A stretch of DNA of 64,000 bases from Tolypothrix carrinoi HA7290-LM1. GTDB taxonomy: Bacteria; Cyanobacteriota; Cyanobacteriia; Cyanobacteriales; Nostocaceae. Positions within the stretch are counted from its first letter, which is position 1. Every line of letters begins with the position of its first letter. This document shows, piece after piece, positions 34,354 to 60,946 of this stretch. The notes beneath the pieces are model-generated. The model worked only from the letters and a program-made list of their open reading frames with translations. It was not told where the DNA came from and did not search any database. Where the stretch lies: the NCBI GenBank assembly GCA_019358935.1, contig JAHHIK010000024.1:15955-79954 (forward strand). The letters run 5' to 3'. A program made the position numbers and the translations under genes.

Positions 34354-34355
34354 TG

Positions 34356-34778
34356 CTAGAACCCTTCTGGAATTGCGCCTGGTGATGGTAGAATTTTCTC
34401 TAGCAAGCGCAATGTTTTCCGAATTACATTAGAGTATTCGGTTCCCTGTTTAATGGCTTCTTCAATTTCATTGGAGAGGGCGTTCATACTTTCGTAATCA
34501 AGTTCTCCTATCAATTCCATATGCTGAACTTTTCGGCACATGCTTATTGCTGGATTAACTTCTTCAGGTGAGGTGATTAAAACCTCTAGAGGTGACGCAC
34601 CTTTTGGACCCGCTCGTTTTATAATTTTGATAATTTCTCCGGGCTTCCTCTCAATCACAGAATTTGCCATGTCGGGATAAAAAGGTGTAAAAAGGTCGCG
34701 TAGTAATTGGTCGTTGGCAGCAATGTTTTCATCTACAGGATGTTGTTGTCCCTCAAAAGACACTATTACTTTAACCAT
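34356..34778 (-). CDS. Ubiquitin-like protein (PRTRC protein C-like) with C-terminal extension
   Basis: About 60-aa domain (LRDLFTPFYPDMANS..IIKRAGPKG) followed by about 80 further aa. Confidence 0.65.
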   Translation of the reverse strand: MVKVIVSFEGQQHPVDENIAANDQLLRDLFTPFYPDMANSVIERKPGEIIKIIKRAGPKGASPLEVLITSPEEVNPAISMCRKVQHMELIGELDYESMNALSNEIEEAIKQGTEYSNVIRKTLRLLEKILPSPGAIPEGF

Positions 34779-34806
34779 AGTAGAATTATTGTGTTTAAAT
34801 GTTGAA

Positions 34807-35523
34807 CTAGACCCCAAACAGCGTTAGCTGTGTATTTTTGCTGGTAGGGTTTTCTTCTTTGGTTTTGATAGGGAGAGAAGCAGCGGGTTGTTTATTTTTG
34901 GTTTTCTTAAGAGCCGCGTAGGAAATAGCCCGTCGCACTTGTCGGTTGGGAAAATCTGCTACTAATTCGTTAAGAAGGTCAGTGATAGCAGGTGGTAATT
35001 CGCCCATTTCATAAAGTCGCAGCATTTTATTAACAGGAAAGTCGCCGTGGCTACTGGCTGCCAGCATCACCTTTCTACCTTCGGGAGAGTTGTCATCAGG
35101 TAGAAAGGTAATGGTTAGCTTTACTGTGCATTTTTCAAAGATGTACGGTTCTAATTGTTCTTCTTTTGAGTTTGTTTCAGACTCGAAGTTTTTGGATTCT
35201 GAGTCGTCATCATTCAATTCGTCCACTTCGTCATTTAATAAAGCTGCATCTGGCGCGTCAACTATTGGTTTTTGTTCATCTGGCTGTGAATCATCTGAAG
35301 AGTTGTCGTTAAGTTCATCATTTTTGGACGCTGGTTGGAGAAGTGCCAAGTAATCAGACGCACCTGAAGACCAGCGATCGCGCTCAAAAAGAAGTCCTAA
35401 TTCTTGGAACCGTTCTTCTGTTGTTTTATGCTTTTGAGAACGATTGGGGTAAGTTTTGAGAGTAGCAGGGCTAATTGAAAGTTGAAGCAGTGAAACAGCT
35501 TGTTCTGGAGTTAGCCAGTTCAT
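34807..35523 (-). CDS. Cassette-associated acidic protein (PRTRC protein E-like position)
   Basis: First gene of the cassette; acidic linker; ends in QLTLFGV, a beta-clamp-motif-like tail. Confidence 0.55.
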   Translation of the reverse strand: MNWLTPEQAVSLLQLSISPATLKTYPNRSQKHKTTEERFQELGLLFERDRWSSGASDYLALLQPASKNDELNDNSSDDSQPDEQKPIVDAPDAALLNDEVDELNDDDSESKNFESETNSKEEQLEPYIFEKCTVKLTITFLPDDNSPEGRKVMLAASSHGDFPVNKMLRLYEMGELPPAITDLLNELVADFPNRQVRRAISYAALKKTKNKQPAASLPIKTKEENPTSKNTQLTLFGV

Positions 35524-38906: not shown

Positions 38907-40994
38907 TTAATTCAAAAGGCTTGCATTTATGTCCAAGTAGCCGCGACGAGCTAGTTCCGCTCTTATATGTGGGTGGTTTTTTAGCTCAGGGTCAATTGCA
39001 AGTATTGAGATTGCGGCAGTCCGTGCGATCGCCAGTATTTCCTCATCTTCTAACAGATTCGCCAAAACCAAATTTGACAGCCCAGATTGGCGAGTTCCCA
39101 ACAATTCACCTTCTCCACGCAGCCGCATATCCATTTCAGAAATAAAAAAGCCATCTTGCGACTGTTCCAGCACAGCGAGACGACTACGCGCTTCTGCTGT
39201 TTTACTGCCATTTATCAGTAGACAGTAGGATTGGTGGGAACCGCGACCGACGCGCCCCCGCAGTTGATGCAACTGGGATAAGCCAAAACGCTCGGCATTT
39301 TCAATCAGCATCACTGTCGCATTGGGAACATCCACTCCCACTTCAACAACCGTAGTAGAAACGAGAATTTGAGTTTGGTTGTCGCGGAAAGCTGCAAGCG
39401 CCTCATCCTTCTGGGCTGGAGTCATGCGTCCGTGCAGTAGACCCACTTTAAATTCGGGGAAGATTTTTTCCGATAGACGTTGATGCTCCTCAATAGCTGA
39501 ACGCACATTCAGCTTTTCTGATTCTTCAATTAGGGGCAACACAATATAGGCTTGATGTCCGAATGGCACTTCGCGGCGGATTAGGTCGTATGCACGAGTG
39601 CTTTTGGTCAAAACTTTGGTGCGGATTGGAGAACGTCCTGGTGGCAACTCATCAATTTGACTGACATCCAAATCCCCATGCAACGTCAGCGCCAGTGTTC
39701 GAGGAATCGGCGTTGCCGTCATTGTTAGCACATGGGGTTGTTTACCTTTTTGCTGCAACTGCATCCGCTGCTGTACGCCAAACCTGTGCTGCTCGTCAAT
39801 TACTACCAAACCCAGCTTATTGAAATTCACCTTGTCTTGAATCAGGGCATGAGTACCTACCAACAGCGGTAGTTCACCACTTTCAAGCTGGGCTTGTATG
39901 CATGAGCGTTTTGCAGTTTTCGTCGAACCCGTGAGCAGTTCGACGGGCAAGTGCATTTTGTTGAACCACGCATTTATCTTACGATAGTGCTGTTCTGCCA
40001 GCACCTCAGTGGGAGCCATCAGCGCCGCCTGGTAGCCAGATTGAATGACGGTGAGTATTGCAACTACTGCTACTACAGTTTTACCTGCACCCACATCCCC
40101 CTGCACCAATCGGTTCATCGGCGTGGGCGATTGCAAGTCATTGAGAATATCGTTGATGACTCGCTGTTGTGCTACTGTCAGATCGAAGGGCAATTGCGAA
40201 TAAAATTGTTTAATTAGCGAACCAGTAGGAGCGATTTTCGAGATGGATGCTCGTGCTTTGAAAAGGTGGCGGCGTTGAAGTAGCGACAGTTGGAGGTAGA
40301 AAAATTCATCAAAGACTAATCGGCGACGCGCAGCTGCCAGGGTTTTGCTGTTAGGGGGAAAGTGGATGTTAGCGATCGCCTTTTTTAACCTAATCAATCC
40401 ATATTGCTGACGCACATACGCAGGCAAGGGGTCTTTTAGTTGATTAATAACAGTTAAAGCAGTCTGGATGGCATTTTGAATTAGCTCCAACGTCACCCCT
40501 TTAGTTAAAGCGTAAATGGGGATAATTGAAGAAGACTTAGCTTTGATGTCTGCTAACTCGATTACACTGAGTTCTGGATTATTTAAGGTTTTGCCCAAGT
40601 ACGAGTCATCTTTAACTATTCCAAATACAGCAACGAGTCGAGTAGTGGAGTAAAGTTTTGATTGCTCACAACGCCATCGTTGCGATTGGTAATAAGGATG
40701 GTTATAAAAACGTTTACAAGTAATAGAACCTGTTTTGTCTTTGATTGTCCAAGTTTGGATTGTTAATTTTGGGTTTTTGGCAGGGCTGATGATTTCATGT
40801 TTTTTGATTATACCGATGATTGTAACGTTGTCACCTACTTTTAAATTGGCAATTCTGACTCTGCGGTATTTTATATAGTCGCGGGGGTAGTAAAATAGTA
40901 GGTCTAGGATAGTATAAATTCCCAGGTTTTTAAGAAGTTTGCTGTTAGTTGGACTGATACCTGGTAAATTATGCAGGGGCTGGAATAAACTCAT
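38907..40994 (-). CDS. recG: ATP-dependent DNA helicase RecG
   Basis: LLFYYPRDY, QGDVGAGKT, DEQHRFG, MTATPIPRT, HQLRGRVGRG. Confidence 0.95.
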   Translation of the reverse strand: MSLFQPLHNLPGISPTNSKLLKNLGIYTILDLLFYYPRDYIKYRRVRIANLKVGDNVTIIGIIKKHEIISPAKNPKLTIQTWTIKDKTGSITCKRFYNHPYYQSQRWRCEQSKLYSTTRLVAVFGIVKDDSYLGKTLNNPELSVIELADIKAKSSSIIPIYALTKGVTLELIQNAIQTALTVINQLKDPLPAYVRQQYGLIRLKKAIANIHFPPNSKTLAAARRRLVFDEFFYLQLSLLQRRHLFKARASISKIAPTGSLIKQFYSQLPFDLTVAQQRVINDILNDLQSPTPMNRLVQGDVGAGKTVVAVVAILTVIQSGYQAALMAPTEVLAEQHYRKINAWFNKMHLPVELLTGSTKTAKRSCIQAQLESGELPLLVGTHALIQDKVNFNKLGLVVIDEQHRFGVQQRMQLQQKGKQPHVLTMTATPIPRTLALTLHGDLDVSQIDELPPGRSPIRTKVLTKSTRAYDLIRREVPFGHQAYIVLPLIEESEKLNVRSAIEEHQRLSEKIFPEFKVGLLHGRMTPAQKDEALAAFRDNQTQILVSTTVVEVGVDVPNATVMLIENAERFGLSQLHQLRGRVGRGSHQSYCLLINGSKTAEARSRLAVLEQSQDGFFISEMDMRLRGEGELLGTRQSGLSNLVLANLLEDEEILAIARTAAISILAIDPELKNHPHIRAELARRGYLDINASLLN

Positions 40995-42584: not shown

Positions 42585-43180
42585 TGTATACGTGCAGCGG
42601 TTATAGCTTTGTTTTCCAAGAGCGTCGGATTTTATGTACGCTCTGCATGGAACGCAGCAGCGATCGCTGCACGGGAATGCCGCTTTTTATCCGAGGCATG
42701 GCGCTCTTGGCATTGAGCCAAAATTATTGTAAGATTATGTAATTGAGTCTGGAAATTATTGTTAAATTTAGCTCGCAACCATTTTTCATCAATTAACGCT
42801 ACACGATAAAGTCTAAATATACGGTTGACAGTGGATGGCATTAAGCAAATATATGTGTGTTGATTGGCAATTAGAGATGAGAAGTTTTGCTAAATCTGTC
42901 TTCCAATAATTTTTCATCCAAGTACCACTTAAATCAAAATTTATCTATCTGTAGCTAAATCGTTAATTAGTTAAGTAGAAACTAAAAAATAAATTTCGGT
43001 TAAGCAGGAAACACTCAACAGGTAAGCAATAAAGATGGCAGTATCGCGCACCCGTGTTGCCCAGTGTTGGCTCTAACTGTATACATCCGTAACCACTGTA
43101 TACAGGTGGCATTACACGAAATGGCTCATTTGACTACACTTTAATACTAGGAAGGATGTTCATTCCTAAGGTCTCCCGTT

Positions 43181-46100
43181 TCAAGAGTTACCGTCGAGAA
43201 TTAAACGGCGATCGCTCTCACTGACATCGGGGTTATTCTGGAGATAGTCACGCACCCAATCGCAGCCCCGCTGCATTAGTTCATCCAGTGATTCAATCTG
43301 CAACAGCTTGGTATTTCCACGATATCCGACGGTAGCCAGTAGCCGACCATCTGGGCTAAAACTAATACTCTTGACAAAACCTTGATCCACTCTCCATCTT
43401 GCTAATGGCTGACCTTTTAAGTCCCATAAGCGGACAGTGCGATCCGCTCCTGCGGTAGCGAGTAGCTGACTATCTGGACTAAATTTGAGTTTCATGATTG
43501 ATTTTTGCGTTGCCTGCCATGTTGACAACTGCTCTGTCAATGGCTGATCCTGCAACTTCCAAAGGCGGACAATGCCATCGTTTCCCGCAGTAGCGAGTAG
43601 CTGATTATTTGGGCTAAAACCGAAGCTACTAATTCCACCTCGATGCGCTACGGGTGTATCTGCCACATGCTGACCTTGCCAGTCCCACAAGTAAACATAG
43701 TCGTGATATTCTATGGTGGCCAATCGCTGACCATCCGGACTAAAATTGTCGCTAGTAATATAACTTTTGTTGTTTGTTATAATATCGCTTCGCTTTTGAG
43801 GAAATTCTATCGGCGGCTGATCCGTCATCAAGTTCCACAAGCGGACTGTACCGTCTTCTTCTACGGTAGCCAATTGCTGACCATTCCGAATAAAACTGAC
43901 AATAGTGATCTTGCGGTCATTCCCTGGCAATTCCTTTAACAGCTGACCCTGCAAATTCCATAAGCGAGCTATACCGTCATCTCCTGCGGTAACAAATTGC
44001 TGACCATCTTGACTAAAACTGACACTGATGATCTTGCGGTCATTCCCTTTCAATTGTGTCAACGGCTGACCCTGCAAGTTCCATAAGCTGACTGTGCCAT
44101 TCTCTCCAACAGTAGTCAATCGCTGATTATCCGAATTAAAACTGACGCTTTTGATTACCTCTTGATCTCCTTTCAATTGTGTCAACAGCTGACCCTGCAA
44201 GTCCCACAAGTACGCTGTGTCGCTAATTCCTGCAACAGCCAGCATCCGACCATCCGGACTAAAACTAACACTCTTAAGCTCGTTTTGACTTGCTTTCAAT
44301 TCTTCCAACTTTTGACCCTGTAAGTTCCAGAAGACAATTGTACCGTTCCCTCCATAGGTAGCCAGCATCTGACCATCCGGACTAAAATTGACAGTAGAGT
44401 ATTGGATTTTAGGGTCATTCTCTTCTAATTCCATGACCGTCTGCTCCTGCAAGTTCCACAAGCGGGCTATACCGTCATCTCCTGCGGTAGCGAATCGCTG
44501 ACCATCCGGGCTAAAACTGACGGATCTGAGGTAGTCGTCAGACGCTTTCCATTCCCGTCCTTCTAACGTCTGTACGTCCCATAAGCGGACATAGCCATCA
44601 AATCCTACGGTAGCTAGTTGGTGACCATCCGGGCTAAAACAGATATTCCATATCCAACCCTTATCGGTAGCTCGCCATTCTTTCAACTTCTGACCCTGTA
44701 AGTCCCACAAGCGGACAATACCAGTACCTCCTGCGGTAGCGAGTTGCTGACCATCCGGGCTAAAACTGACGCGAGCAAGCCAAAATTGATCCGCGTTCCA
44801 TTCTTTCAACTTTTGACCCTGCAAGTTCCATAAGCGGACAGTAACGTCATCTCCTGTGGTAGCCAATAGTTGACGATCTGGGCTAAAACTTAACAAGTTT
44901 GTACGTGGCTCAGTCTTCCATTCTTCCAACTTTTGACCCTGCAAGTTCCACAAGCGGATAGTACCGTCATCTCCTGCGGTAGCTAATAGTTGACCATCTG
45001 GGCTAAAACTTACCATAACGCTGCTGGCATTGTCTCCCCCTTTAAGACGGTTGCGTTCTTGTACTCTACTAAGAGTTTGCTGAAGAAGTGTTTGAATGCG
45101 AACATGGAGATTCTTCTCTAACCACGGCGATTCTTTGAGTTGTTGGATTTGTCTGCCCGCCTTCAAAGCATATACCAACGCTCCAAGTTGATCGTCTCCA
45201 AAACTAGCTTGAGCTAAAGCTGACAAGGCAGTAAAGGCAGTATGAATCTGTGTTTTAGTGTCAACTTGCCTTTTTTCTTCTAGTTGTTGGCAGGCATGAA
45301 CATATTCCCTAGCCAGCGTGTCCAGACAAACCGTATTTTTGCTGTATGATAATTCTACTGCATCTTCCAAACGGCTTCCCTGAAGCAGTAAAAGCTCTTC
45401 TTTCTTCTCCTTCTCTGCCTTTTCCCACTCCCGTGCTTCGTTTTCAATTCGTTGCCGCAAAAAGAGGCTGGTAAGGTCTTTATCCAGCCAAGAACGCAAT
45501 GTTGGCCAATAGCGGATTAACGCTTCATGGGCAACTTCTACTTCTTCTTTTTTTGTTGATTCGTTTTGGCTGGTGATTACCAATCGCTCATTTGCTAAAA
45601 GCGTCACCAGCTTCTTGATAACAGCTGAATCTCCATTGGCTGGCACCAATTGTTTTAGCTCAACTCGTCGCCGTGTATCCCGTCGTTGTTCTCCTTGGAT
45701 AGAATTTTCATCTAAATGGGTTAGCCTGACAAAGATATTCCTGACTTGTTCTTTTTCCTCAGATGATAATTTATTGTAGACCTCATCAGCGGTATGAGCG
45801 ATCGCTCCTTGTACTCCACCAATCTCTCGATACTCCTCCGACAGTAACCACTTTCCGTGTCGTCGATTCCACAACTCCAATAATGTGTGTTGCAACAGTG
45901 GCATTGCCCCCGGTTCTCCCTCCAAGTGTTCCAAAATTTTATTCAGCAAATCGACTTCAAACCGCAAGCCAACCTTTCCTGCTTGTTCGTGAATCGCATT
46001 ACGCAACTCAGCAGTATTCATCGGGGCAATTAGTTTCTGCTGTTTCTCCATCAAGTCTTTCAATTCGGGGTACGGCGCACATTCACCCCAAAAGTCAGCA

Positions 46101-47917
46101 CGCATGGTAAGAATCACTTGCTGATTCTTAGCTAACTTAAGCAGTTCGTCGATAAAATTTTGGCGCTTGTATTCATCGTTGCAAAGGGTAAAAATTTCTT
46201 CAAACTGATCCACCACTAATATATAAGGATGGTTTTGTACCTTGGCTAAACTTGCTTTCAGTTGCGCCAGTGGGGCAACTTTTGGAGTCATGTAAGCCAT
46301 CTTAAGTTTTGGTTCTTTTTTCTTTAGTGCAGGGAACAAACCCGCCATTATCAAAGATGATTTACCGGAACCGGAAGGACCTAAAACTGGTAAAAATTTA
46401 TCTTCGCTGAGTTTTTGTTGCAATTCCTCAATTAATTTTTCCCGTCCGCAGAAAAATTCGCGCTTTTCATAGTGGAAGGGATACAAACCTTGAAATGGAC
46501 AACGAGCATCGTAGCTGGGGACTTCCTTACCTAAAGCTAGATTTTCAAAGCTAAGGTCAAGCGCTTCTGAACATATTCGTTTTACTTCTACCAAAGCTTT
46601 GTCTTTTTCTTCAATTGCTTTATCGCTGTCCGCGTTTAATGTTCTTTGGAGGGTTGCAATATGTTGTTTTAACTTCTCAGCCAAAACAGGCGCACTTTCT
46701 GGTAACAATTTTTGCAAGCGTTCTAGACCAAACTCGATTTCGTTTTTAGTCAAAGGACGATCCAAAGTGTCGCTAAACAGGGGTTTTCCACCCAAGCGGC
46801 TAAACAAAGCTGGAACTGTAATATCATATCTACCTTGTAGCCCAGCTGTTGCTTCAACTAACGCCAAGTCTACATACCCGTGCTGCCTCAGTTGCTTGTA
46901 AAAAGTTGCAGCTAGTGCCTTAACCGTATTTATACTTATTGCGTCAGTCATAGCAACTACCGCAGGCATACCTAGGTCCCGGACAAGACCTTGTGCCAGT
47001 CCCCCTATCGCTTTTACTTCTCCTATCTGGGCTTCGTTTGCTTCATCGACTTTTGTTACCTCAGCCTCAGCACTTGCACTTTCACAAGTTGATAAAAAAG
47101 CAAAATGGGGTAGACGACGCAATAGCTTTAATTCTTTGATTAAGTCAGTTGCTTTGACTGGTGCAACCTCATTTTTTTCATTTGCCAAATAAATTGCTGT
47201 TTCCCCATCATTAAGTACTCGACCATGACAGACTAAGTGCAGCAGAGTATAGTTATTCTCAGTAAGAAATTTTTTCAAGTTGTCATTAGTCGGTAAACCT
47301 GCTGCACCATCAACAGTTGCAAGTACATCACAGGGAATATCGCTGAGAGAAGCCTTAATACTAGATACCGTTGCTTGAACATCAAACGGTGCCAGGTGAT
47401 ACGTAACCGAATTTTCAGGACTAGCAGCCACAACCAAAGCCTTTAAATCACGCCGTCCAAATCTAGGAAATTTATCGTCCGTTATTGGCGAGGGAATATA
47501 GAAAGAAAGGGGGGTTTGTTGGTTGAGTAATAAATAGTCCCAGTCGTCATCATCCCCAGGAGCGTGGAGTTTTTCCCATCGTAATTGTCTTAGTTCTTCG
47601 TCTTCAATATCTAATAGAATATGCAGACAATTTAGATTGTCATCACTATCGGAAGTCTTATTCGTCGAGAAGAAACTCCGAGCTTGAATGAGAGCTTTAT
47701 GAGCGTTACCGTCAAATAAAGCTTTACCCAACATTTCACCATAGTCTTGTGGTTTCCATAATAACTCTCTGAACTTATTAAAAATATCGTCGTTATTGGG
47801 TTTGAAGTTTAAAGTGCTATTTTTATGAATTTTTAGCCCTGTTCTACTAATATATTCGATAGTCACAGGCCAACTATTTTTATCTTTGGGTCTAATAGTA
47901 ATTTCAAAAATACTCAT
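43181..47917 (-). CDS. CHAT protease - nSTAND1 NTPase - WD40 repeat protein
   Basis: CHAT dyad HLVCHG and LSTCES; CPFQGL, GPSGSGKSS, VDQFEEIF, PLLQHTL, AHEAL; about 14 SFSPDG WD40 repeats. Confidence 0.92.
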   Translation of the reverse strand: MSIFEITIRPKDKNSWPVTIEYISRTGLKIHKNSTLNFKPNNDDIFNKFRELLWKPQDYGEMLGKALFDGNAHKALIQARSFFSTNKTSDSDDNLNCLHILLDIEDEELRQLRWEKLHAPGDDDDWDYLLLNQQTPLSFYIPSPITDDKFPRFGRRDLKALVVAASPENSVTYHLAPFDVQATVSSIKASLSDIPCDVLATVDGAAGLPTNDNLKKFLTENNYTLLHLVCHGRVLNDGETAIYLANEKNEVAPVKATDLIKELKLLRRLPHFAFLSTCESASAEAEVTKVDEANEAQIGEVKAIGGLAQGLVRDLGMPAVVAMTDAISINTVKALAATFYKQLRQHGYVDLALVEATAGLQGRYDITVPALFSRLGGKPLFSDTLDRPLTKNEIEFGLERLQKLLPESAPVLAEKLKQHIATLQRTLNADSDKAIEEKDKALVEVKRICSEALDLSFENLALGKEVPSYDARCPFQGLYPFHYEKREFFCGREKLIEELQQKLSEDKFLPVLGPSGSGKSSLIMAGLFPALKKKEPKLKMAYMTPKVAPLAQLKASLAKVQNHPYILVVDQFEEIFTLCNDEYKRQNFIDELLKLAKNQQVILTMRADFWGECAPYPELKDLMEKQQKLIAPMNTAELRNAIHEQAGKVGLRFEVDLLNKILEHLEGEPGAMPLLQHTLLELWNRRHGKWLLSEEYREIGGVQGAIAHTADEVYNKLSSEEKEQVRNIFVRLTHLDENSIQGEQRRDTRRRVELKQLVPANGDSAVIKKLVTLLANERLVITSQNESTKKEEVEVAHEALIRYWPTLRSWLDKDLTSLFLRQRIENEAREWEKAEKEKKEELLLLQGSRLEDAVELSYSKNTVCLDTLAREYVHACQQLEEKRQVDTKTQIHTAFTALSALAQASFGDDQLGALVYALKAGRQIQQLKESPWLEKNLHVRIQTLLQQTLSRVQERNRLKGGDNASSVMVSFSPDGQLLATAGDDGTIRLWNLQGQKLEEWKTEPRTNLLSFSPDRQLLATTGDDVTVRLWNLQGQKLKEWNADQFWLARVSFSPDGQQLATAGGTGIVRLWDLQGQKLKEWRATDKGWIWNICFSPDGHQLATVGFDGYVRLWDVQTLEGREWKASDDYLRSVSFSPDGQRFATAGDDGIARLWNLQEQTVMELEENDPKIQYSTVNFSPDGQMLATYGGNGTIVFWNLQGQKLEELKASQNELKSVSFSPDGRMLAVAGISDTAYLWDLQGQLLTQLKGDQEVIKSVSFNSDNQRLTTVGENGTVSLWNLQGQPLTQLKGNDRKIISVSFSQDGQQFVTAGDDGIARLWNLQGQLLKELPGNDRKITIVSFIRNGQQLATVEEDGTVRLWNLMTDQPPIEFPQKRSDIITNNKSYITSDNFSPDGQRLATIEYHDYVYLWDWQGQHVADTPVAHRGGISSFGFSPNNQLLATAGNDGIVRLWKLQDQPLTEQLSTWQATQKSIMKLKFSPDSQLLATAGADRTVRLWDLKGQPLARWRVDQGFVKSISFSPDGRLLATVGYRGNTKLLQIESLDELMQRGCDWVRDYLQNNPDVSESDRRLILDGNS

Positions 47918-48019
47918 AGCTGAGATTGTCCTTTTGAGATTAGTTGTATTTTCACCCCTCTGAGTGTCAGAGAAAGGTAGGGTAAAGGTTACAAAAAATC
48001 GCGTTATATTACATTAACT

Positions 48020-49693
48020 TTAAGTTCTCATTGCTTGAAGTAAACTATTTGCAAATATCGTCATCGTTTGCAGTTTTGCAGCTTCGTCTGCTGGAGCTTT
48101 CTTAACTTCCTCCAAAAATTCCTCCAGAGATTGAATCAATTTAACTTGTGCTTGCTTTAACCCAGTTCCTGAATCAGAAGTGGTCGCTGGTTGTGGCACA
48201 AGTGCGGGTTGCAAAGTTATTTTTTCAATAATTGGTCGCTCTATATCCGCATCACCTACAAATAATCGCACTGCTGGGTCGCCAATAACGGCATAGCTGC
48301 GAGCGTCGTTGTTGGCTGTCCATATACTAGCCACTTCCCAATCATCAGCAGCATAGCCATATTTGATATCTTCTAGCTTTGAACTTAAGTCAGAAGATAG
48401 TTCCGCATAACGTTCGTTGAAGTAATCTAAAGCTGAACCTACAGGATACCCCTCCATTAGTTGCTTCATCGTACTTTGAAAGTGTGACAACTGCGTTCCT
48501 GCTTTTTGCCAAACAAAAGAACATCCCCAAGCTCGTTCCACATGACCGACTACAGCTAACGCTCCTCCTTTAGGGTGGCTGAGTAAGCGCTGTGGTAATT
48601 TAGCAACGAAGGCATGGGGAGCAATAGCCGAGCGTTCTGTTGAGTTTGTTGGATTACCAAACTTATCCACATGAGCAAAGTCATTCCGTTGGGGGGTACC
48701 CGCCCCATAGCAAGCAAAGTGAAAGGCAATTAACCCCAACAAACGAGCATCATCGCCAATATCATCTGCCGAAAAGTAAAAATCTTCTGGAATTGGTTTT
48801 TTACCCCATATCATTGAACCAGGCCAATCCTGACATAATAATGCTCCTTGGTGGCGCAATTGTCTGCGATCGCCGTTGGGAAATTCCATCCCGTGACTGG
48901 CTGTAAATAAAAAGCTAGGTGTTTCGCTACCTCCTAGCAGTTGCCCCAAACGAGCTTTTGTAGCTTCGTCTCGAAGTATGGTATGCACCTTCCAATTAGG
49001 TTGATCGGCAGCCATCAATTCCGCTAGTGGCTTAACTAGTTCGTCTGCACTCAGTTGAGTGGCTTTGTCCATATTATTCCGCACACCAAAGAAACAGGCA
49101 TTACGAGATAGCGAAACCTTACCTGTTTCTGCTGCGACTACACTTTGAGCGTACTGAGCATACTCTTCTAAAGTATCGAAATAAATTCTGCCTACTGCAT
49201 ATTGCACATCAAGTTGATACTGAAAGCGATAGGAAATGCTTTCTGGGTCACCAACTATCAGTAGATAATAGGGCATTTTCTCTGGATCGGCAGCACCAGG
49301 ACCAACTTTATGACGACTCAGAAACTTGTTTTTCGACTCGTCGGGACGATATCCCCTGTGACCTGTATATTCCTGATAGTAATGTTCTTTATTTTGTGTT
49401 GCTTGTTGGCGACGAAATTCTAACAAAGGCTTAAGAGCTTCTCGAATTGCGGGGTCAGCATCATGAGCAAAGATAACTCCCCAGCCAGTTTCCGCCAAAT
49501 TTTTTGGGTCTACTCCTTCTTTTGGGCGAAAGCTATCTTCTCCGCTAGCTCGTCTTTCAAGTTCGCTCAGGTGTGCAGAGTCTATTTTTTCGCCCTTGGC
49601 AATTTGTACAACCTGTTTGGCTGTTAAAGGTGGCAATGAATATTCACCAGTTACCCCATTGACACCGTTAAAATACAAAAGTTCTTCATCCAT
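48020..49693 (-). CDS. Gingipain/C25-like (caspase-fold) cysteine protease
   Basis: [18 protein letters not shown] (His), FACYG (Cys), IGDPA. Confidence 0.8.
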
Positions 49694-49814
49694 CGTTTTG
49701 TTTATCAGTTTGCTAACTACAATTTCAATTCATTAATTACGGAAGACTCTTGGATAACAGGGATCGGAGAAATAATCACTTAGCAAATCACTGCTGGTGT
49801 AGATTAATGTTGAT

Positions 49815-51164
49815 TTAACTGCCAATTGCTGCCTGCCAAATTGCATGGGCAACTTCCGGTTTAGCGATATCACTGTGGGCACCACCTAAACCACCACCTG
49901 TTTTGTCGTTAATAAACTCGCTACTATCCAAATTGTAGATTTTTCCAGCTTCAAATTGGTAAAAACCATTCACAGGAAGCATTTTCATATCTACAATTTC
50001 TAAACCAGGTCCACGAGCACCAAATGTTCCCAAGCCACCATACTTAGGAAATTCAAAAGAGCCATCAGCTTTGACTGGAAACGCCACTTGCTGGCGAAGA
50101 CCCGCACCAAGAGGATACATTTTACTAACCGCAGTATCGTTCTCTGACTGCGTGGTAATTATGCAACCAGCAACTTTACGGTCAGCAACAACAGACCGGA
50201 AATAGCCTGCACGACCGGGTGCAACAGGAATATCCGAGCAGTAAGACCACAGCGAAAGCGCACCTTGTATCAACGCCACAGAATTAACAGGACGAACTAA
50301 AGTGCCGCGACCATCGGGACCAGCCAAAGTTGCGGAAACCACAATGCAACCAAAGCTGTGACCCATCAAATGAAATCGCACATCATTAGATGTAGCCTGT
50401 TGAAGTTTTGTTAGTAACTGGAAGCCACCACTTTCACCAAATTGACGAGCGCGGTCTTTCATTTTCCAAAAAGACAGAGTTCGCAAAGGTGCTAACATCG
50501 AACCCCAATCCAAGTCACCGTAACTGGTAGGGTCATTTTCAGCATCTTGGAATATACTTTCAGGGTCAAACGATTCGTGGTCTGCTCCCGGTGCTGCTCC
50601 TTCTCCTTCTGCAACCAAATGAGCTTCTCGGTTTAATACCTCATAAGCTTCAAATACTTCTGGTGGTAAGGTGTCAGGTGCAACATTTTCCATTGCTGCT
50701 AGAAAAATAGTCCTCAGAGCTTGTTTAGCTGTCTGTGTATTGGCTATTCGCTCTGCATACTCCTCAACCAATTGCTCTACAGGAGAAACTTCCTGCACTA
50801 CAAATTCTTGTACTGCAAAGGATTCAGAACTATTTCCCAACTCTTCATTACCCCAAGGTAAACTGGGCCAATGCAAACCTATCAGCAATGGGCAAAATTC
50901 TGACCGCGCCCTTTGGATTTGTTCAATATCAGCCAGGTTTTTGGACATGGCTTTAACCCATTTGTTGTACTGGTTACGTGCTGCTGCAATATCGCCCAAC
51001 CATCCGTGGCTAAACAAAAAGACATCTGTGATTGGCTCATTGGATAAGACATCCAAGATTTTTTGGCTCATCTTCCCTTCTGCCTCATCGCGTTCTTTGC
51101 CAGCAGCATTAAACGCGACCAGGTAGTACTGCACGGAGGTTCCGAGTACGTTTTCAATTGACAT
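49815..51164 (-). CDS. Alpha/beta hydrolase
   Basis: SHGW, HWPS, nucleophile GHSFG, NDTAV, GAHSDI. Confidence 0.85.
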   Translation of the reverse strand: MSIENVLGTSVQYYLVAFNAAGKERDEAEGKMSQKILDVLSNEPITDVFLFSHGWLGDIAAARNQYNKWVKAMSKNLADIEQIQRARSEFCPLLIGLHWPSLPWGNEELGNSSESFAVQEFVVQEVSPVEQLVEEYAERIANTQTAKQALRTIFLAAMENVAPDTLPPEVFEAYEVLNREAHLVAEGEGAAPGADHESFDPESIFQDAENDPTSYGDLDWGSMLAPLRTLSFWKMKDRARQFGESGGFQLLTKLQQATSNDVRFHLMGHSFGCIVVSATLAGPDGRGTLVRPVNSVALIQGALSLWSYCSDIPVAPGRAGYFRSVVADRKVAGCIITTQSENDTAVSKMYPLGAGLRQQVAFPVKADGSFEFPKYGGLGTFGARGPGLEIVDMKMLPVNGFYQFEAGKIYNLDSSEFINDKTGGGLGGAHSDIAKPEVAHAIWQAAIGS

Positions 51165-51920
51165 AAGAAGGTTATGTTATAAAAACTTATCGAGGATAGA
51201 ATAACCACTCGAAAGGGAGTGTAGTGATGCAGCGACTCCAAAAAGTTGAGCCAAAAAATTTTACTTGAATATCGACATCTCCTACGCGCAGTGAGTGGCT
51301 CCATGTGTTACCTCATAAGCGTGGCATCCTATTTACTTATTATTACCACATGGTTTCTGTTCTCAATTCCGCAATTGAGGTAAAAAGCTTATAGCTTAAG
51401 TTTCGACTCGTGAGTAATGCGCCATTCTACGAAAGGGCATTTAGGTGGAATAGAAGAAATTGAGATGAGTAGAATGAATGCTTAGAGCCAATGCGGTGCC
51501 ACGGGGATTGTGAAACACTGGCTGACCAATTCCCTACTGCACGGGAGATTGCCAAGATTGTCGAGCGTTGATTTCTTACTTTTAAATTAATTATTAAACT
51601 ATATATTCAAAAACAAATTTATAATTCAATTAACCCTGACTCTTTATCGTGTTGTAAAGCTTTATGCAATTTATTGTCAACCGTATAGTCACACTTTATC
51701 ATGTAGCATTGATTATTGATTTTCAAAGAATGCCTGAAAGCTAAATATAACAAGAGTTGTCAGGCAAAATAGCATTATTTTACAATGATCTCGACGCAAT
51801 CCCTCTTGGTTAAGATATGGTAACATTGCGCGACCTACCAAGTGAACAAGTGCAACGCCTGTTCAATTGTTTAGGAGCGGTGAAAAGAGCTAGTGACTCC
51901 CATTCAGTCACTTCGGAGCA

Positions 51921-54251
51921 TCAATCAATGTCTAAGCCTTGGTCGCCTGTCTGCTTTTTATGAAGCTTTTGTACCTCGGATTCAATAAACTCTCTCTCGT
52001 CGGTTAGTATCTTGTTCCAGCCTCCCATACCTGGGTTTATTCGCCTAGCCTGGGGTAAAGCAGCAAGTATTTCTTCAGATACTGCATTGCCTTCTTCATC
52101 CCCTTTCAAACCCACTACGACATTAGGTAATTTCTCCAAAAATTCTTTGGGAATTGCTTTGACGCTATCGGCAGCTAAGTATAAAGTTGGCGTTTGATTA
52201 AAGTCAGGGTCGAGAGCCATTACTGAAAGCACTTCCACTGGATCGCTGGTAAGAACTGCTCTTTGAATTGGGGTAATGGTTGCTACCCAGAAGCAGCCCG
52301 TTGTTGTGTTCGGATCATCAGGGGCAGCTGTTTCATCGAAGCCAGGGCGAATAGAAGAGAATGTGCTATCATTCAGCACAAATGCCCCGGTCGGTTCACC
52401 GTCAAGAGTCCGCTCAATAAATACAGTTTGACCTTCATCGTCCGCATAGATCCAACCTTTGGCGTGCAAGAGTTTTACCATTTGCTCAGGCAGCAAGCGA
52501 TCGCCTACCAAATACTCTTGCACCTTATGCCAGTTGTTCTCGTTTCGGTCGGGCAGCACTGGGGCTGGGATTTCTGGTGATGCGTCGTTCGTTTGTTGTT
52601 CCGGTATTTGGGGCATCTCGTCAGACTGTGACGTAGGCATTGGCTCTGCCCTATGAAGAATTTGCTGCTTTGACTGCGATCGCCAACGGACACGCTTTGC
52701 TACATGCACTTCCTTATCTTTCAGTTGGGTGTCAGATTCTTGGGTTTGTGTTTGGTTCAGGGGTTGTCCCAATTGGTCGGGTTTCTGGCGCTGCGTGTCT
52801 GGGTTTGTTTGGGACGACGCCTGCTGATTAAACTCTAATTCTGACAATAGCCTGCTGCGTCGTTTCGCCAGCATCGATGCTTGTTCTTTTAGTGCTTCTT
52901 GATCCGGCAGCTGTTGTGCAACGCTCGTTGTTGCTCTAGCCTCGTTGGGTTGCTGTTGGTCAGTAAGTTGTTGCTGGTCAAGATTTTGGGCAGCCTGGGA
53001 TTCCCCTTTGTGTAGCTTTGTTTCACGTTGGTCGCCATCTACATCTCCGGGTCGCCGTTGCTGCCCAATAGTCGAGGCGGTTCCTATTGTCACGTCAAAA
53101 AGCTCTTGTTCACGCTTGACTTTGCTGAAATTATCGTCTATAATACTTTCCCCAGAAGCTGATGTATTGTCGTCCCCCAAGATAACCGACTGTTGTTGCT
53201 TAAGACGCGATCGCTTCTTATGCGGCGTCGTGGTTGTTTGTTGCTGCTGTTTTAGTTGCTCAAGCGATTGATTGACGAGGCTTGCGGGTTGTTGCTGGTC
53301 GCTGTCCAAGCTGTCTGGCATCGTAGGGTAAGAGTCAGGCGAGGTGGTGGTTTCGGTACGGGATTTTTTCTCTTCCTCTTCCTGACGTTTCCGAATCTGG
53401 TTTTGATGTGCGAGTTGAGCCTGTTGTTGCTGCTGTTCTTTGGCTGGGCTACGCAATGCTTGCTCGACAACTTCTTGCCTTTGTTTCTCGCTGTAACTAA
53501 CACCCCTGTATTTCTGCAATCCTTTGAAAGTGTATGCTTTCCCCAAGTGGGTGCCAGAAAAAGCGACGCCGTTTAGCTGATAGCTAATGCCCATTTCTTT
53601 TGTTGGTGTTGGCGACACCCTAACATCAATGCCTTGGTCTTTTAGCTGTTGAACCAAATCCGGCATTGTGGGACTATCTTCGGTCAGCTGGTCAATTGTA
53701 TCTTGCAGTTTCTTTCTAACGCTAGTTTCTCCGGTTCGGGAAAAGAGACGGCGTTCTCCCGTGGTTGGGGAGCGGCGGTCTTTTTCAAAGCTTGATGATG
53801 CTGGTGTTAGTTCGTACTTCTTCTCCAGATCCCTGATTAGTTCCTCAGAACGTTTGTAGTCTTGCCATTCAGAAACAGTGGAGCCACTCAGTCTCAGACG
53901 GCTGGCTACAATATGAACATGGTTATGTTCGGTATCAGTATGACGCGCCAGGATGTACTGATTGTCGTCAAATCCCATACCTTGCAAATAATTTTCTGCG
54001 ATCGCGCACCAAGTTTCATTGAAGAGTGTTTCTTCTGCTGGCACACTCAAGGTTGCATGATAGACGACTTTGCGGGTGGGCTTTTTAGTGCGCGTCCTCT
54101 CGTGACGCTGCATAGATAATTGAAATTCCTGGGATAATTCAGCTGGTGTCTCTCCTACCATATTGCCACCTATTAGCTCGGCTCCTTCTTTGCCCAGCAC
54201 GTAGTCCAGGCAGCCGTAAAAGTCAGTTCCCTTGATTTGCTTACCAATCAT
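51921..54251 (-). CDS. MOB(P)-type relaxase with long Q-rich linker and C-terminal DUF3991/Toprim-like region
   Basis: MIGKQIKG..LDYV, YHATLS, RHTDTEHNHVHIVASR; C-terminal YLVGDRLLP..GWIYAD..KGDEEG. Confidence 0.88.
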   Translation of the reverse strand: MIGKQIKGTDFYGCLDYVLGKEGAELIGGNMVGETPAELSQEFQLSMQRHERTRTKKPTRKVVYHATLSVPAEETLFNETWCAIAENYLQGMGFDDNQYILARHTDTEHNHVHIVASRLRLSGSTVSEWQDYKRSEELIRDLEKKYELTPASSSFEKDRRSPTTGERRLFSRTGETSVRKKLQDTIDQLTEDSPTMPDLVQQLKDQGIDVRVSPTPTKEMGISYQLNGVAFSGTHLGKAYTFKGLQKYRGVSYSEKQRQEVVEQALRSPAKEQQQQQAQLAHQNQIRKRQEEEEKKSRTETTTSPDSYPTMPDSLDSDQQQPASLVNQSLEQLKQQQQTTTTPHKKRSRLKQQQSVILGDDNTSASGESIIDDNFSKVKREQELFDVTIGTASTIGQQRRPGDVDGDQRETKLHKGESQAAQNLDQQQLTDQQQPNEARATTSVAQQLPDQEALKEQASMLAKRRSRLLSELEFNQQASSQTNPDTQRQKPDQLGQPLNQTQTQESDTQLKDKEVHVAKRVRWRSQSKQQILHRAEPMPTSQSDEMPQIPEQQTNDASPEIPAPVLPDRNENNWHKVQEYLVGDRLLPEQMVKLLHAKGWIYADDEGQTVFIERTLDGEPTGAFVLNDSTFSSIRPGFDETAAPDDPNTTTGCFWVATITPIQRAVLTSDPVEVLSVMALDPDFNQTPTLYLAADSVKAIPKEFLEKLPNVVVGLKGDEEGNAVSEEILAALPQARRINPGMGGWNKILTDEREFIESEVQKLHKKQTGDQGLDID

Positions 54252-56622: not shown

Positions 56623-57096
56623 ATGGCTGAAAGAATAAAGCAGGCGCATTTTTGTTGGCGGTATCAGCCAGAATCCCACACTTTGGATGCAGTGTTGTTG
56701 GCTTATCTCAAAAACAATGTGGTGATGCGAACAACCGATATGATGTTGCATTCTTTGCGGGCGTTTTGGTTGCCACTGGCTTGTTTAAAGCATCCCGATT
56801 TATCTGAAACAGACAAAAAACAGATGGCAAGAGATGCAGTGTATGCCCTGATGCGACAGGCGGATTATCTTTGCTCAACTTTTGGTTTGGAGCGGGTTAC
56901 TCCTCCTAATTCTTTAGTTTCCCCAAGTTCGATATCGCCAGTTTTTAGAAGTACAAATTCGGGACAAGGAGCCGAATCTTCTTCTTTGCCTTCAAAGAAG
57001 TTGAAAGAGGAAACAAGGGAGAATTCGTTATTGGTGTCGGAGCTAGAACGAGCCACTGGCGATGGTGATTGGGATGACAACGGTTGGAAAACTTAA
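56623..57096 (+). CDS. ParR-like adaptor candidate
   Basis: Small gene directly after parM with an acidic C-terminal tail. Confidence 0.6.
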   Translation: MAERIKQAHFCWRYQPESHTLDAVLLAYLKNNVVMRTTDMMLHSLRAFWLPLACLKHPDLSETDKKQMARDAVYALMRQADYLCSTFGLERVTPPNSLVSPSSISPVFRSTNSGQGAESSSLPSKKLKEETRENSLLVSELERATGDGDWDDNGWKT

Positions 57097-57110
57097 GGAG
57101 AAAGAATAAT

Positions 57111-58208
57111 ATGGCTTTAAGAGGAAGAAAGAAGAAAGAGGCGATTTTTGAAGAAATAGGAAATATTGAGGTTGAAGAGCATACTTTGGACAATACTTCA
57201 ACCCCAGGTGCACAACTTGAAGCTGAAAATTTGGACAATACTTCAACTCAAGATGCACAACTTGAAGCTGAAAATTTGGACAATACTTCAACTCAAGATG
57301 CAGAAATTGAAAAGCATACTTTGAACAATACTTCAACTCAAGATGCACAACTTGAAGCTGAAAATTTGGACAATACTTCAACTCAAGATGCAGAAATTGA
57401 AAAGCATACTTTGAACAATACTTCAACTCAAGATGCACAACTTGAAGCTGAAAATTTGGACAATACTTCAACTCAAGAAAAACAGGATGTTGGACAGAAA
57501 CCCCTACAAGCAAAGCAGAGGACAATAATTCATTTGGTGGATGGCGAGAAGGGGGGTGTAGGCAAATCTCTGGTTGCTCGAACCATGCTGCAATATTGTT
57601 TGGATAATTCACTGCCAATTGTTGCAGTGGAAGCTGACCGTTCCAATCCAGATGTGGCTGGGATTTACTCAGATTGCTTTGAAGCTGTATTTAGTGAGGA
57701 TGAAAAGAGAGCTGACAAAGCGGATAAAATTTTTGAGTTGGCTATGTCTAAGTCCGTGATTGTAAACTTACCTGCTCAGGTATATGAACCGGTGTCTGAT
57801 TGGATAAACAAGAATGGACTGATTGAATTAGGAAAGCAGCACTCTCTGAGTTTCTGCAAGTGGTTTGTCTGCACCGGTGGTTATGACAGTGTGCAGTTGT
57901 TTTTGAAGTCCGTGAAGGATTTTGGTGACAAAATGCCCCATGTTTTGGTGCGGAATTTGGGATTATGTGACGATTGGTCTCATGTCGAGGGGATGGAGGA
58001 AGTGAACAATACTATTAATAAGTATTCGGTGCAGGTAATTGACTTCCCCAAATTTAGCTACCGGGAAAGGAATATGGTAGACGAGAAGCGCATAACCTTT
58101 GCCCAAGCGCGGGATTCTGATGAATTTGGGATTGTGTCGAAACAGCGAATTCATAATTTTCTCAAGTCCGCTTATGCACAGTTTAAAAATACGGGTTTGC
58201 TACCTTAA
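57111..58208 (+). CDS. MobD/ParA-like P-loop protein with N-terminal 15-aa repeats
   Basis: DGEKGGVGKS, EADRSNPDV, VNLPA; AAGGAG upstream of 57111. Confidence 0.78.
   Translation: MALRGRKKKEAIFEEIGNIEVEEHTLDNTSTPGAQLEAENLDNTSTQDAQLEAENLDNTSTQDAEIEKHTLNNTSTQDAQLEAENLDNTSTQDAEIEKHTLNNTSTQDAQLEAENLDNTSTQEKQDVGQKPLQAKQRTIIHLVDGEKGGVGKSLVARTMLQYCLDNSLPIVAVEADRSNPDVAGIYSDCFEAVFSEDEKRADKADKIFELAMSKSVIVNLPAQVYEPVSDWINKNGLIELGKQHSLSFCKWFVCTGGYDSVQLFLKSVKDFGDKMPHVLVRNLGLCDDWSHVEGMEEVNNTINKYSVQVIDFPKFSYRERNMVDEKRITFAQARDSDEFGIVSKQRIHNFLKSAYAQFKNTGLLP
57186..57477 (+). repeat. Coding tandem repeat, 45-bp unit, about 6.5 copies
   Basis: Units start at 57186, 57231, 57276, 57321, 57366, 57411 and 57456, encoding LDNTSTQDAQLEAEN or LDNTSTQDAEIEKHT. 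Confidence 0.92.
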
Positions 58209-60304: not shown

Positions 60305-60946
60305 ATGGTTCAAACAGTTGGGATTACCAAAGCGATTACTAACCTGAATGAGGCACACGCCAAGTTCAAATTAAGCCAGACTCTGAAGAGCGAATTTTTC
60401 ACAGAATGGTTTGAGGATTTACCCGAACTCACTGATAGCGAAAAAGCATCTTTGAATCGGCTGAAGAGTCGCTACCTCTATTATGCCGCAGACGGTGAAA
60501 TCACAGAAGGTACTGTCAATATTATTATGCTATCTCCGCTACTGGAATTAATGGGTTTGTGCGATCCACCTTTTAAGAAGAAGAGTGAGCAATTGGTGAA
60601 GGTTGAAATTGAAAACGGAGGCGAAGAAGAACCAGTATTAGAAGGATTCATTGACGCTTTAGTTGTGCAAAATCGACTCTGGGTGGTGTTAATTGAATCT
60701 AAGCGTTATGGTTTGAGCGTTATGCAGGCTCTCCCACAAACTTTAGCTTACATGATGGCAAACCCTAACTTGGAAATGCCAGTTTTTGGAATGATAACGA
60801 CTGGTGAAGACTATATTTTTATCAAGCTGAATCAGCAGGTGCGTTCCTATGCTCTATCAAACAAGTTTACTCTCTCCAACCCAAGAGAAAACGAGTTGTA
60901 CGAAGTTATGCAGGTGATGAAGCGAATTGTTAGCTTGGTCGTATAG
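60305..60946 (+). CDS. PD-(D/E)XK restriction-endonuclease-like protein (HsdR N-terminal-like)
   Basis: EGTV..GFIDALV..IESKR..ALPQTLAYM..GMITTG. Confidence 0.75.
   Translation: MVQTVGITKAITNLNEAHAKFKLSQTLKSEFFTEWFEDLPELTDSEKASLNRLKSRYLYYAADGEITEGTVNIIMLSPLLELMGLCDPPFKKKSEQLVKVEIENGGEEEPVLEGFIDALVVQNRLWVVLIESKRYGLSVMQALPQTLAYMMANPNLEMPVFGMITTGEDYIFIKLNQQVRSYALSNKFTLSNPRENELYEVMQVMKRIVSLVV

What the first reader, a model, noticed from the sequence alone, without database searches (positions are those of the whole stretch)
43181..51164. Three-gene cassette: alpha/beta hydrolase + C25-like protease + CHAT-nSTAND1-WD40 sensor, a candidate proteolytic-cascade defence system
Seen: three co-oriented genes placed between the primase and the relaxase. 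All catalytic motifs look intact: Ser (GHSFG), two caspase-fold His/Cys dyads (ASHG/ACYG and CHG/TCES), Walker A/B and about 14 WD40 repeats. Established: STAND NTPases with repeat sensors act as NLR-like receptors, and caspase-like proteases activate effectors by cleavage in bacterial gasdermin and type III-E CRISPR systems. Inference: ligand binding activates CHAT, which cleaves the C25 zymogen and/or unmasks the hydrolase as a toxic effector. I cannot match this combination to a named system.
Basis: partly seen in the sequence, partly recalled or inferred. Interest (0 to 1): 0.78.

Follow-up and report, generated by a model that had tools for sequence, protein, structure and literature searches.

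The report
Two-protease cascade with shared cut tag
A mobile three-gene module in a filamentous cyanobacterium looks like an immune receptor that switches on a second protease, which then unlocks dormant enzymes carrying one short shared tag, including fat-oxidising enzymes encoded elsewhere in related genomes; this is predicted from sequence comparison and has not been tested.

Summary
The cassette is real: hydrolase, gingipain-fold C25 protease and CHAT-nSTAND1-WD40, with catalytic residues invariant in 148, 97 and 34 aligned homologues. It recurs in 23 of 32 cyanobacterial C25 loci. It fills a variable plasmid slot that holds Pepco plus caspase-nSTAND1-WD40 in a relative.

New evidence: a short tag, roughly V-S-F-G/D/A, flanks the hydrolase's acidic insert (120 and 133 of 148 homologues). 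It follows C25: 19 of 21 sites in C25-fused hydrolases, 0 of 12 in CHAT-fused ones, which mostly carry L-L-G. It recurs in unrelated partners: a helical protein, trypsin-nuclease fusions and lipoxygenases. Related lipoxygenases carry it in 7 of 8 C25-positive genomes and mostly lack it in 19 C25-negative ones.

Best model: sensor activates CHAT, CHAT activates C25, C25 cuts tagged zymogens. It works like the hydrolase-caspase pair (Evans 2025) and SAVED-CHAT/PCaspase, but belongs to neither. No cleavage, toxicity or phage phenotype is shown; the CHAT-to-C25 step is the weakest.

The parts
49815..51164 (-). Alpha/beta-hydrolase, 449 aa, DUF900-like; predicted zymogen effector; triad S270/D343/H430
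   Evidence: triad invariant in 148 of 148 aligned homologues
50505..50852 (-). Acidic helical insert, aa 105-220; both ends low-confidence in the model (pLDDT under 50 at 103-125 and 212-219)
50814..50825 (-). Candidate cut tag, site 1 (aa 114-117, ESFA)
   Evidence: tag in the site-1 window of 120 of 148 homologues, 13.5 expected from shuffles
50517..50528 (-). Candidate cut tag, site 2 (aa 213-216, TSYG); below the profile threshold in this copy
   Evidence: 133 of 148 homologues, 24.9 expected; window scan
50076..50087 (-). Candidate cut tag, site 3 (aa 360-363, VAFP) in a low-confidence loop; proline after F makes it atypical here
   Evidence: 70 of 145 homologues, 12.1 expected
48020..49693 (-). 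C25/gingipain-fold cysteine protease, 557 aa, dyad H267/C328; predicted executioner
   Evidence: dyad invariant in 97 of 97
49526..49693 (-). Predicted pro-segment of C25 (aa 1-55) ending at candidate activation site DSF/R; aa 1-39 low-confidence in the model
   Evidence: residue at this position F 50, L 18, Y 11, W 5, K 4, R 3, V 3, M 1 of 95
46763..47917 (-). CHAT protease domain of the sensor, aa 1-385, dyad H231/C278; predicted initiator
   Evidence: dyad invariant in 34 of 34; subfamily nearly confined to C25-bearing genomes
45404..46498 (-). nSTAND1 NTPase, aa 474-838, Walker A and B intact
43298..45037 (-). 14 WD40 repeats, the fast-changing sensor end
   Evidence: 46% identity to the nearest relative against 69% (CHAT) and 82% (STAND)
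42786..42846 (.). Left arm of a 61-nt imperfect inverted repeat (79%), at the left edge of the variable slot; role unknown
51659..51719 (.). Right arm of the same inverted repeat
51921..54251 (-). Relaxase of the plasmid-like backbone flanking the slot (context, not part of the module)
   Evidence: PF03432 E 4e-32; flank 93-95% identical in G423 and G438

Best explanation
A three-tier, NLR-triggered protease cascade for conflict defence, most likely abortive anti-phage defence. (1) The WD40 end binds a foreign ligand and the STAND domain oligomerises, activating its CHAT domain: inferred from characterised STAND receptors. (2) CHAT removes the roughly 55-aa pro-segment of the C25 protease, possibly amplified by C25 self-cleavage: inferred, the weakest step. 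(3) Mature C25 cuts after F/Y in a V-S-F-G/D/A-type tag in acidic linkers, excising the hydrolase insert and unmasking a serine hydrolase, probably acting on lipid esters, that kills or arrests the cell. Covariation of the tag with C25 is shown; cleavage, substrate and toxicity are inferred. Other genomes attach other tagged outputs to the same protease.
For: All three genes in 23 of 32 non-redundant cyanobacterial C25 loci and 31 of 106 overall. 24 of 26 other genomes with this CHAT subfamily have C25, which occurs in only 31 of 300 family genomes. 7 of 7 plasmid records with a C25 match have a hydrolase match within about 10 kb. The hydrolase sits beside a protease in 9 of the 10 plasmid loci opened. 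The tag changes with the partner: C25-fused F-type 19 of 21 windows, L-type 0; CHAT-fused F-type 0 of 12, L-type 10; subtilase-paired copies carry A/G-A/Q-G-like words by eye. A profile trained on hydrolase sites 1-2 finds the tag in unrelated partners: helical protein c0 37 hits against 6.0 shuffled (max 13), trypsin-nuclease fusion middles 21 against 6.5 (max 13), C25 N-termini 35 against 5.9 (max 12). In G450 the sensor carries an intact C14 caspase, the C25 pro-site has K, and the hydrolase keeps VSFG at site 2. Same plasmid slot holds Trypco1/Pepco plus caspase-nSTAND1-WD40 in G423. C25-hydrolase co-fold: weak support, score 0.53, best control 0.00, contact agreement at least 0%, partner pLDDT at least 79; that mark was reached by 116 of 157 solved complexes and 2 of 215 mismatches, but at 0.60 or under by 18 solved and both mismatches.
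Against: No experiment on any member. The C25 pro-site usually resembles the effector tag (F/Y/W in 66 of 95), so one protease could read both. The caspase-swap argument rests on one complete locus, where site 1 is lost. Neighbours of the fusion proteins are unknown, so a C25 gene beside the CHAT-fused hydrolases is not excluded, and each fusion class may be one lineage. The tag is short and degenerate: WD40 strands (S-V-S-F-S-P) score as well, and the training words included some mis-picked ones. This copy deviates at three places (site 2 under threshold, site 3 F-P, pro-site F-R). 24 of 59 loci with both flanks have no hydrolase. PADLOC has no model for the C25 or hydrolase. The same slot carries metabolic genes in G438, so the slot alone does not prove defence.
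Confidence: 0.55

Rival explanations
1. C25 activates itself when recruited to or clustered by the active STAND oligomer. It reads the tag in its own pro-segment and in the effectors; CHAT has another job (self-release, or another substrate).
For: The C25 pro-site is enriched for the hydrolase-trained tag (35 against 5.9) and matches it exactly in L126. Tagged effectors persist in seven loci where no CHAT was found within the fetched flanks (L058, L067, L082, L097, L106, L109, L124).
Against: CHAT dyad invariant in 34 of 34. The pro-site turns K where the sensor protease is a C14 caspase, and turns K in L064/L065 while the C-terminal linker tag stays. Orphan sensors exist elsewhere in C25 genomes (L197-L200), so CHAT can act from a distance.
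Confidence: 0.17
2. Flat wiring: the CHAT subfamily reads the tag and cuts both C25 and the hydrolase directly; C25 is a parallel, broad-range killer like PCaspase.
For: This CHAT subfamily is tightly tied to the cassette; CHAT specificity differs among families (own knowledge); PCaspase is broad (Steens preprint, passages).
Against: Hydrolases fused to CHAT carry a different word (0 of 12 F-type) and those fused to C25 carry the tag (19 of 21). G450 lacks this CHAT subfamily yet keeps the tag.
Confidence: 0.1
3. Same biochemistry, different purpose: a stress, developmental or inter-strain cell-death and oxylipin-signalling switch of multicellular bacteria rather than anti-phage defence.
For: Sensor ends include CHASE2 and FGE-sulfatase as well as WD40. 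Tagged lipoxygenases lie far from the cassette in G152, G439 and G463. No phage data.
Against: Patchy, mobile distribution (31 of 300 family genomes, 0 of 10 same genus), a fast-changing sensor end, tandem and decayed copies, and nuclease, SIR2 and Pepco partners fit an arms race.
Confidence: 0.12
4. The tag is a docking strand or a structural feature, not a cut site; the genes co-occur for another reason.
For: The tag resembles the WD40 strand word; the three co-fold runs may share no contacts.
Against: It lies in low-confidence acidic linkers on both sides of a removable-looking insert, switches with the protease class, stays when WD40 is replaced by FGE-sulfatase or CHASE2, and has decayed in a lipoxygenase whose genome shows no C25.
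Confidence: 0.06

Closest known systems
LcHydrolase/LcCaspase protease-effector module (Evans et al. 2025, 10.1101/2025.11.14.688446; pairing predicted in Kaur et al. 2020, PMC7159879)
   Same: An alpha/beta-hydrolase zymogen next to a caspase-fold protease, cut at two sites around an acidic middle piece, substrate unknown. The paper names beta-transducin and STAND fusions among sensors.
   Different: LcHydrolase is 296 aa and cut at R/G by one caspase. Here the hydrolase is 449 aa, the candidate sites are F/Y-type, there is a third site, and there are two proteases. Similar layout was judged by eye only; no alignment was run.
SAVED-CHAT to PCaspase cascade of type III-B CRISPR/CBASS (Steens et al., preprint 10.1101/2023.06.23.546230)
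   Same: An oligomerising sensor-CHAT that activates a second clan CD protease.
   Different: The trigger there is cA3 through SAVED, the second protease is a broad C14-type caspase, and the partners are a sigma factor, inhibitor and kinase. Here the trigger is STAND-WD40, the second protease has the gingipain fold, and the substrates carry a specific tag.
Avs/STAND receptors with N-terminal proteases gating MBL nuclease, Pepco or EACC1; Apaf-1-like WD40 STANDs (PMC13581612; Evans 2025; Tuck 2025, PMC12799240)
   Same: Protease-STAND-repeat architecture with a separate latent effector; sensor ends include WD40 and FGE-sulfatase.
   Different: Those act in one proteolytic step; no C25 tier was found in the passages read. 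No ligand is known for this nSTAND1-WD40.
Gingipains RgpB/Kgp (family C25)
   Same: Fold and His-Cys dyad.
   Different: No signal peptide or Ig-like/secretion tail seen in the sequence; 12-13% identity in the structural alignment; predicted preference for F/Y, not Arg/Lys (gingipain specificity from entry titles and own knowledge).

Membership tests
LcHydrolase/LcCaspase module | Alpha/beta-hydrolase fold with intact triad, encoded beside a caspase-fold protease | tested here: met
LcHydrolase/LcCaspase module | Conserved R/G cleavage motifs around a short middle fragment | tested here: not met
   The conserved words around the roughly 100-aa insert are F/Y-type
LcHydrolase/LcCaspase module | Sequence membership of the LcHydrolase family (about 300 aa) | not tested
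   Reference seen in a supplement and compared by eye only; lengths 296 against 449 aa
LcHydrolase/LcCaspase module | Cleavage makes the hydrolase toxic | not testable with these tools
   needs bench work
SAVED-CHAT/PCaspase cascade | SAVED sensor and type III CRISPR or CBASS context | tested here: not met
   Sensor is nSTAND1-WD40; the only SAVED_CHAT match covers the CHAT part (E 1e-4); no Cas or cyclase family among the window proteins scanned
SAVED-CHAT/PCaspase cascade | Two clan CD proteases with intact dyads in one locus | tested here: met
SAVED-CHAT/PCaspase cascade | First protease cleaves and activates the second | tested here: inconclusive
   Only indirect: pro-site change in the caspase-sensor locus
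Avs / defence STAND receptors | Effector-STAND-repeat architecture with intact Walker motifs | tested here: met
Avs / defence STAND receptors | Match to a named Avs model | tested here: inconclusive
   No Avs model among PADLOC 2023 or NCBIfam hits; the clade tables of PMC13581612 were not read
Avs / defence STAND receptors | Activated by a phage protein | not testable with these tools
   needs bench work
Peptidase family C25 | Pfam PF01364 above cut-off and gingipain fold | tested here: met
   41.7 bits against 23; gingipains rank 1-5
Peptidase family C25 | Arg/Lys specificity of gingipains | tested here: inconclusive
   Partner tags point to F/Y; no activity measured

The most novel reading that the evidence does not exclude
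C25 is a sequence-specific executioner that runs a genome-wide proteolytic regulon. Unrelated enzymes, including chromosomal lipoxygenases far from the cassette, have gained or kept acidic inserts with the cut tag, so one NLR-like signal unlocks a lipase-like hydrolase and a lipoxygenase together and drives lipid peroxidation or an oxylipin alarm in the filament: an immune-triggered, ferroptosis-like or oxylipin pathway in bacteria. The window's own genome has no lipoxygenase match, so this would apply to relatives.
Probability: 0.3. Interest if true: 0.92.

Novelty: new variant of a known kind. Interest (0 to 1): 0.8.

Why it matters
If right, it is a bacterial initiator-executioner-substrate hierarchy behind an NLR-like receptor, with the logic of the apoptosome but a gingipain-fold executioner. 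It gives a first job to a large cytoplasmic C25 family (7,840 clusters among 8,000 scored) and to a hydrolase family of at least 2,822 clusters at 50% identity. The tag makes it directly testable: it names the bonds to map and predicts new effectors by scanning, such as the unknown helical protein c0 and the long lipoxygenases. It offers a testable route to what lipoxygenases (233 of 301 family genomes) and caspase-like proteases do in multicellular cyanobacteria.

Tried and rejected
PADLOC and NCBIfam gave no system-level or family name for the hydrolase or C25. Foldseek found no hydrolase match at E 0.001 or better; the wide structural search did. No solved relative of the nSTAND1 domain by sequence. 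C25 and CHAT profiles do not align significantly (prob 0.1), so they are not recent duplicates. c0 has no Pfam hit and only sub-0.9 Atlas leads. The tag is not enriched in the sensor's CHAT and linker (15 against 9.8, max 22), STAND region (5 against 6.9), the M12-like neighbour c24 (1 against 0.9), or the subtilase-type hydrolases (1 against 4.1); metallophosphoesterase c25 is borderline (4 against 0.8, max 4); C25 C-linker 18 against 7.3 (max 17); C25 core 29 against 11.8 (max 22), unexplained. A scan of the own genome for further tagged substrates returned mostly WD40 repeats and no convincing target. A motif search for a short LcHydrolase-like gene in the own genome found none. Membership of the LcHydrolase pair, the type III-B cascade and gasdermin systems was rejected (no gasdermin hit among neighbours scanned). 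Paper searches that did not turn up this combination; most subscription papers are outside that library, and PMC7685563 was not held. Earlier-findings look-ups by sequence and place were empty. Sequencing-run and viral-contig searches were not used.
Full report
OBSERVATION. Three minus-strand genes are present as stated: hydrolase (449 aa), C25-like protease (557 aa) and a 1578-aa CHAT-nSTAND1-WD40 protein. All named motifs are in place and 14 WD40 repeats can be counted. The hydrolase triad is invariant in 148 of 148 aligned homologues, the C25 dyad in 97 of 97, the CHAT dyad in 34 of 34. The C25 model (mean pLDDT 70) matches gingipains best. The hydrolase model (pLDDT 76) matches alpha/beta hydrolases with no single clear relative. 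Each of the two smaller genes is single-copy in the genome. The contig is 79,954 bases and plasmid-like: relaxase, NikA/MobC-like, TrbI- and TraC-like hits. The nearest named homologues are from filamentous cyanobacteria. The 'primase' label has no family hit.

DISTRIBUTION. C25 matches 5 of 300 other genomes of the phylum and 31 of 300 of the family, some only as fragments, and 0 of 10 of the genus. The CHAT subfamily matches 26 of the same 300 at E 1e-40; 24 of these have C25 and the other two are partial hits (only six candidates per genome were scored). I mapped 118 loci with a near-complete C25 and dropped 12 at 97% identity or more (L017, L018, L026, L030, L043, L045, L055, L061, L087, L092, L108, L114). 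Of 32 cyanobacterial genome loci, 24 have the hydrolase, 26 the CHAT subfamily and 23 all three. Of 74 metagenome loci, many short, the counts are 19, 10 and 8. Of 59 loci with at least 1.6 kb on both sides, 35 have the hydrolase and 29 all three. Hydrolase and C25 distances correlate over 43 paired loci (rho 0.67, best permutation 0.29; kin are not independent). The sensor end varies fastest (46% to the nearest relative against 69% and 82%), is swapped for FGE-sulfatase or CHASE2, comes in tandem pairs and occurs as orphan copies elsewhere in C25 genomes. Variants include C25-trypsin-nuclease-hydrolase fusions in five loci, C25 with CHAT-SIR2 and nSTAND1-WD40, C25-CHAT fusions, and C25 with an unknown 265-aa protein, c0.

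THE SLOT. G438 has the same backbone at 95-97% on both sides but 8.4 kb of metabolic genes in place of the cassette. G423 has Trypco1/Pepco and a caspase-nSTAND1-WD40 gene beside the same relaxase. Pepco is a tested protease-gated effector (Evans 2025). A 61-nt imperfect inverted repeat brackets the cassette.

THE TAG. A word of the form V/I-S/D/N/A-F/Y-G/D/A/S lies on both sides of the hydrolase's acidic insert and in a third loop: 120 and 133 of 148, and 70 of 145, against 13.5, 24.9 and 12.1 in shuffled windows; the middle of the insert has 15 against 24.8. All three places are low-confidence in the model. A profile trained on sites 1-2 only (75 words, a few mis-picked) finds it in proteins not used for training: c0 37 against 6.0, trypsin-nuclease fusion middles 21 against 6.5, C25 N-termini 35 against 5.9, site 3 19 against 2.6. 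It is not enriched in the sensor's first 960 residues. WD40 strands score too, which is a caution. These sequences are related, so counts overstate independence.

WHICH PROTEASE READS IT. The hydrolase family sits beside a protease in 9 of 10 plasmid loci opened: four with a subtilase, five with CHAT and/or C25, one with none seen. The words change with the partner. Among distant representatives, 11 proteins fuse the hydrolase to C25 and 6 fuse it to CHAT. C25-fused: F-type in 19 of 21 windows, L-type in none. CHAT-fused: F-type in 0 of 12, L-L-G-type in 10 (patterns chosen after seeing the sequences). Of 111 near-complete representatives, 46 matched the strict tag; the rest carry other words or none. 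Five subtilase-paired copies show A/G-A/Q-G-like words by eye, and 1 of 9 distant copies matched the tag. The window's hydrolase has the C25-type words. In G450 the sensor protease is an intact C14 caspase, the CHAT subfamily is not found, the C25 pro-site has K, and the hydrolase keeps site 2. That is what two tiers predict, given that bacterial C14 enzymes often cut after basic residues (own knowledge; LcCaspase cuts at R), but it is one locus. The co-fold of mature C25 with the hydrolase gave weak support: 0.53 against a best control of 0.00, contact agreement at least 0%, partner pLDDT at least 79. The mark was reached by 116 of 157 solved complexes and 2 of 215 mismatches, at 0.60 or under by 18 and both mismatches.

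LIPOXYGENASES. A lipoxygenase gene or fragment neighbours the cassette in six loci, one a duplicate. It belongs to a long clade with an N-terminal acidic insert. I examined 27 members, one per genome; three second copies were not fetched. Seven of 8 from C25-positive genomes have two to four tags in the insert; 16 of 19 from C25-negative genomes have none and none has more than two; profile hits 16 against 2.3 shuffled, and 3 against 3.9. The exception, from G468, has none. Thirty shorter control lipoxygenases have 0-1. Tagged copies fall in two supported lineages, so the independent events are few. Three lie far from any cassette. G152 (C25-positive) and G476 (no C25 or CHAT match; 99% complete draft) have syntenic copies 93.6% identical, and three of four tags are altered in G476. 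The window's genome has no lipoxygenase match.

MECHANISM. Shown: anatomy, co-conservation, and the tag's covariation with C25. Inferred: ligand sensing, CHAT activating C25 near F55, C25 cutting the tags, hydrolase toxicity, phage as trigger. The pro-site is aromatic in 66 of 95 homologues, so self-activation remains a live rival. This copy deviates at site 2, site 3 and the pro-site, so it may be less active than the consensus.

LITERATURE. Evans 2025: parts 1, 2, 5 and 6 of 6 and the first part of one supplement; its figures and large PDF supplement were not visible and may show such loci. Passages only: Kaur 2021, Kaur 2020, Tuck 2025, PMC13581612, Steens preprint, PMC10907252; their supplements were not read. 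Together they cover caspase plus hydrolase, CHAT plus caspase, and WD40 STAND receptors. Seven searches did not show a C25 tier, this operon, the tag or tagged lipoxygenases; that library lacks most subscription papers. Earlier scan notes were leads only.

VERDICT. A real, recurrent, mobile module; a new variant of protease-gated defence, not a member of any described system tested here. Interest 0.8, for the two-tier wiring and a tag that names the bonds and substrates to test.

Noticed in passing
window 19259-23995: Tn7-like unit: fused TnsA-TnsB (915 aa), TnsC/TniB-like ATPase and TniQ; PADLOC best match TniQ_IB.
   Followed up: no
window 25869-29204 (-): 1111-aa protein with a weak match to eukaryote-type RdRP (PF05183, E 6e-4, below cut-off) on a plasmid-like contig.
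   Followed up: no
window 31353-35523 (-): Prok-E2_D and ThiF genes with small neighbours, resembling a PRTRC-type ubiquitin-like cluster (name recalled); shared with G423.
   Followed up: no
window 38907-40994 (-), 29663-30589 (+), 60305-60946 (+): Second RecG helicase copy on the plasmid-like contig; HipA-like kinase; HsdR_N-like protein.
   Followed up: no
window 57084-58208 (+): ORF with an N-terminal run of about 15-aa tandem repeats ahead of a P-loop region; no Pfam hit.
   Followed up: no
c0 family, e.g. L035:4629-5444, L012:6964-7770: Unknown 265-aa protein beside C25 in 18 non-redundant loci, with about three tags and a C-terminal hydrophobic stretch (14 of 19 at 1.6 or more on a 19-residue scale); candidate membrane effector.
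   Followed up: partly
L058:6542-6877, L059:9367-9702: Free 111-aa proteins homologous to the C-terminal extension of long C25 forms (E about 1e-7); possible adaptor or inhibitor.
   Followed up: partly
L089, L096, L097, L106, L109: Single 1,700-aa proteins joining C25, trypsin, non-specific endonuclease and the hydrolase, with tags in the linkers.
   Followed up: partly
L128, L129, L133: Distant four-gene form (hydrolase, unknown protein, CHAT, C25-like) in Embleya, Bradyrhizobium and Gemmobacter, with a different word (I/M-A-A-like, by eye) at the same sites.
   Followed up: partly
L127, L003, L041: Decayed cassettes: sensor split by IS1634 with degenerate sites (L127), hydrolase in two pieces (L003), both genes broken (L041).
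   Followed up: no
L019, L020, L023; L032, L040, L049: A subtilase with P-domain, or a ferrochelatase, lies just upstream of the cassette in three loci each; may be synteny only.
   Followed up: no
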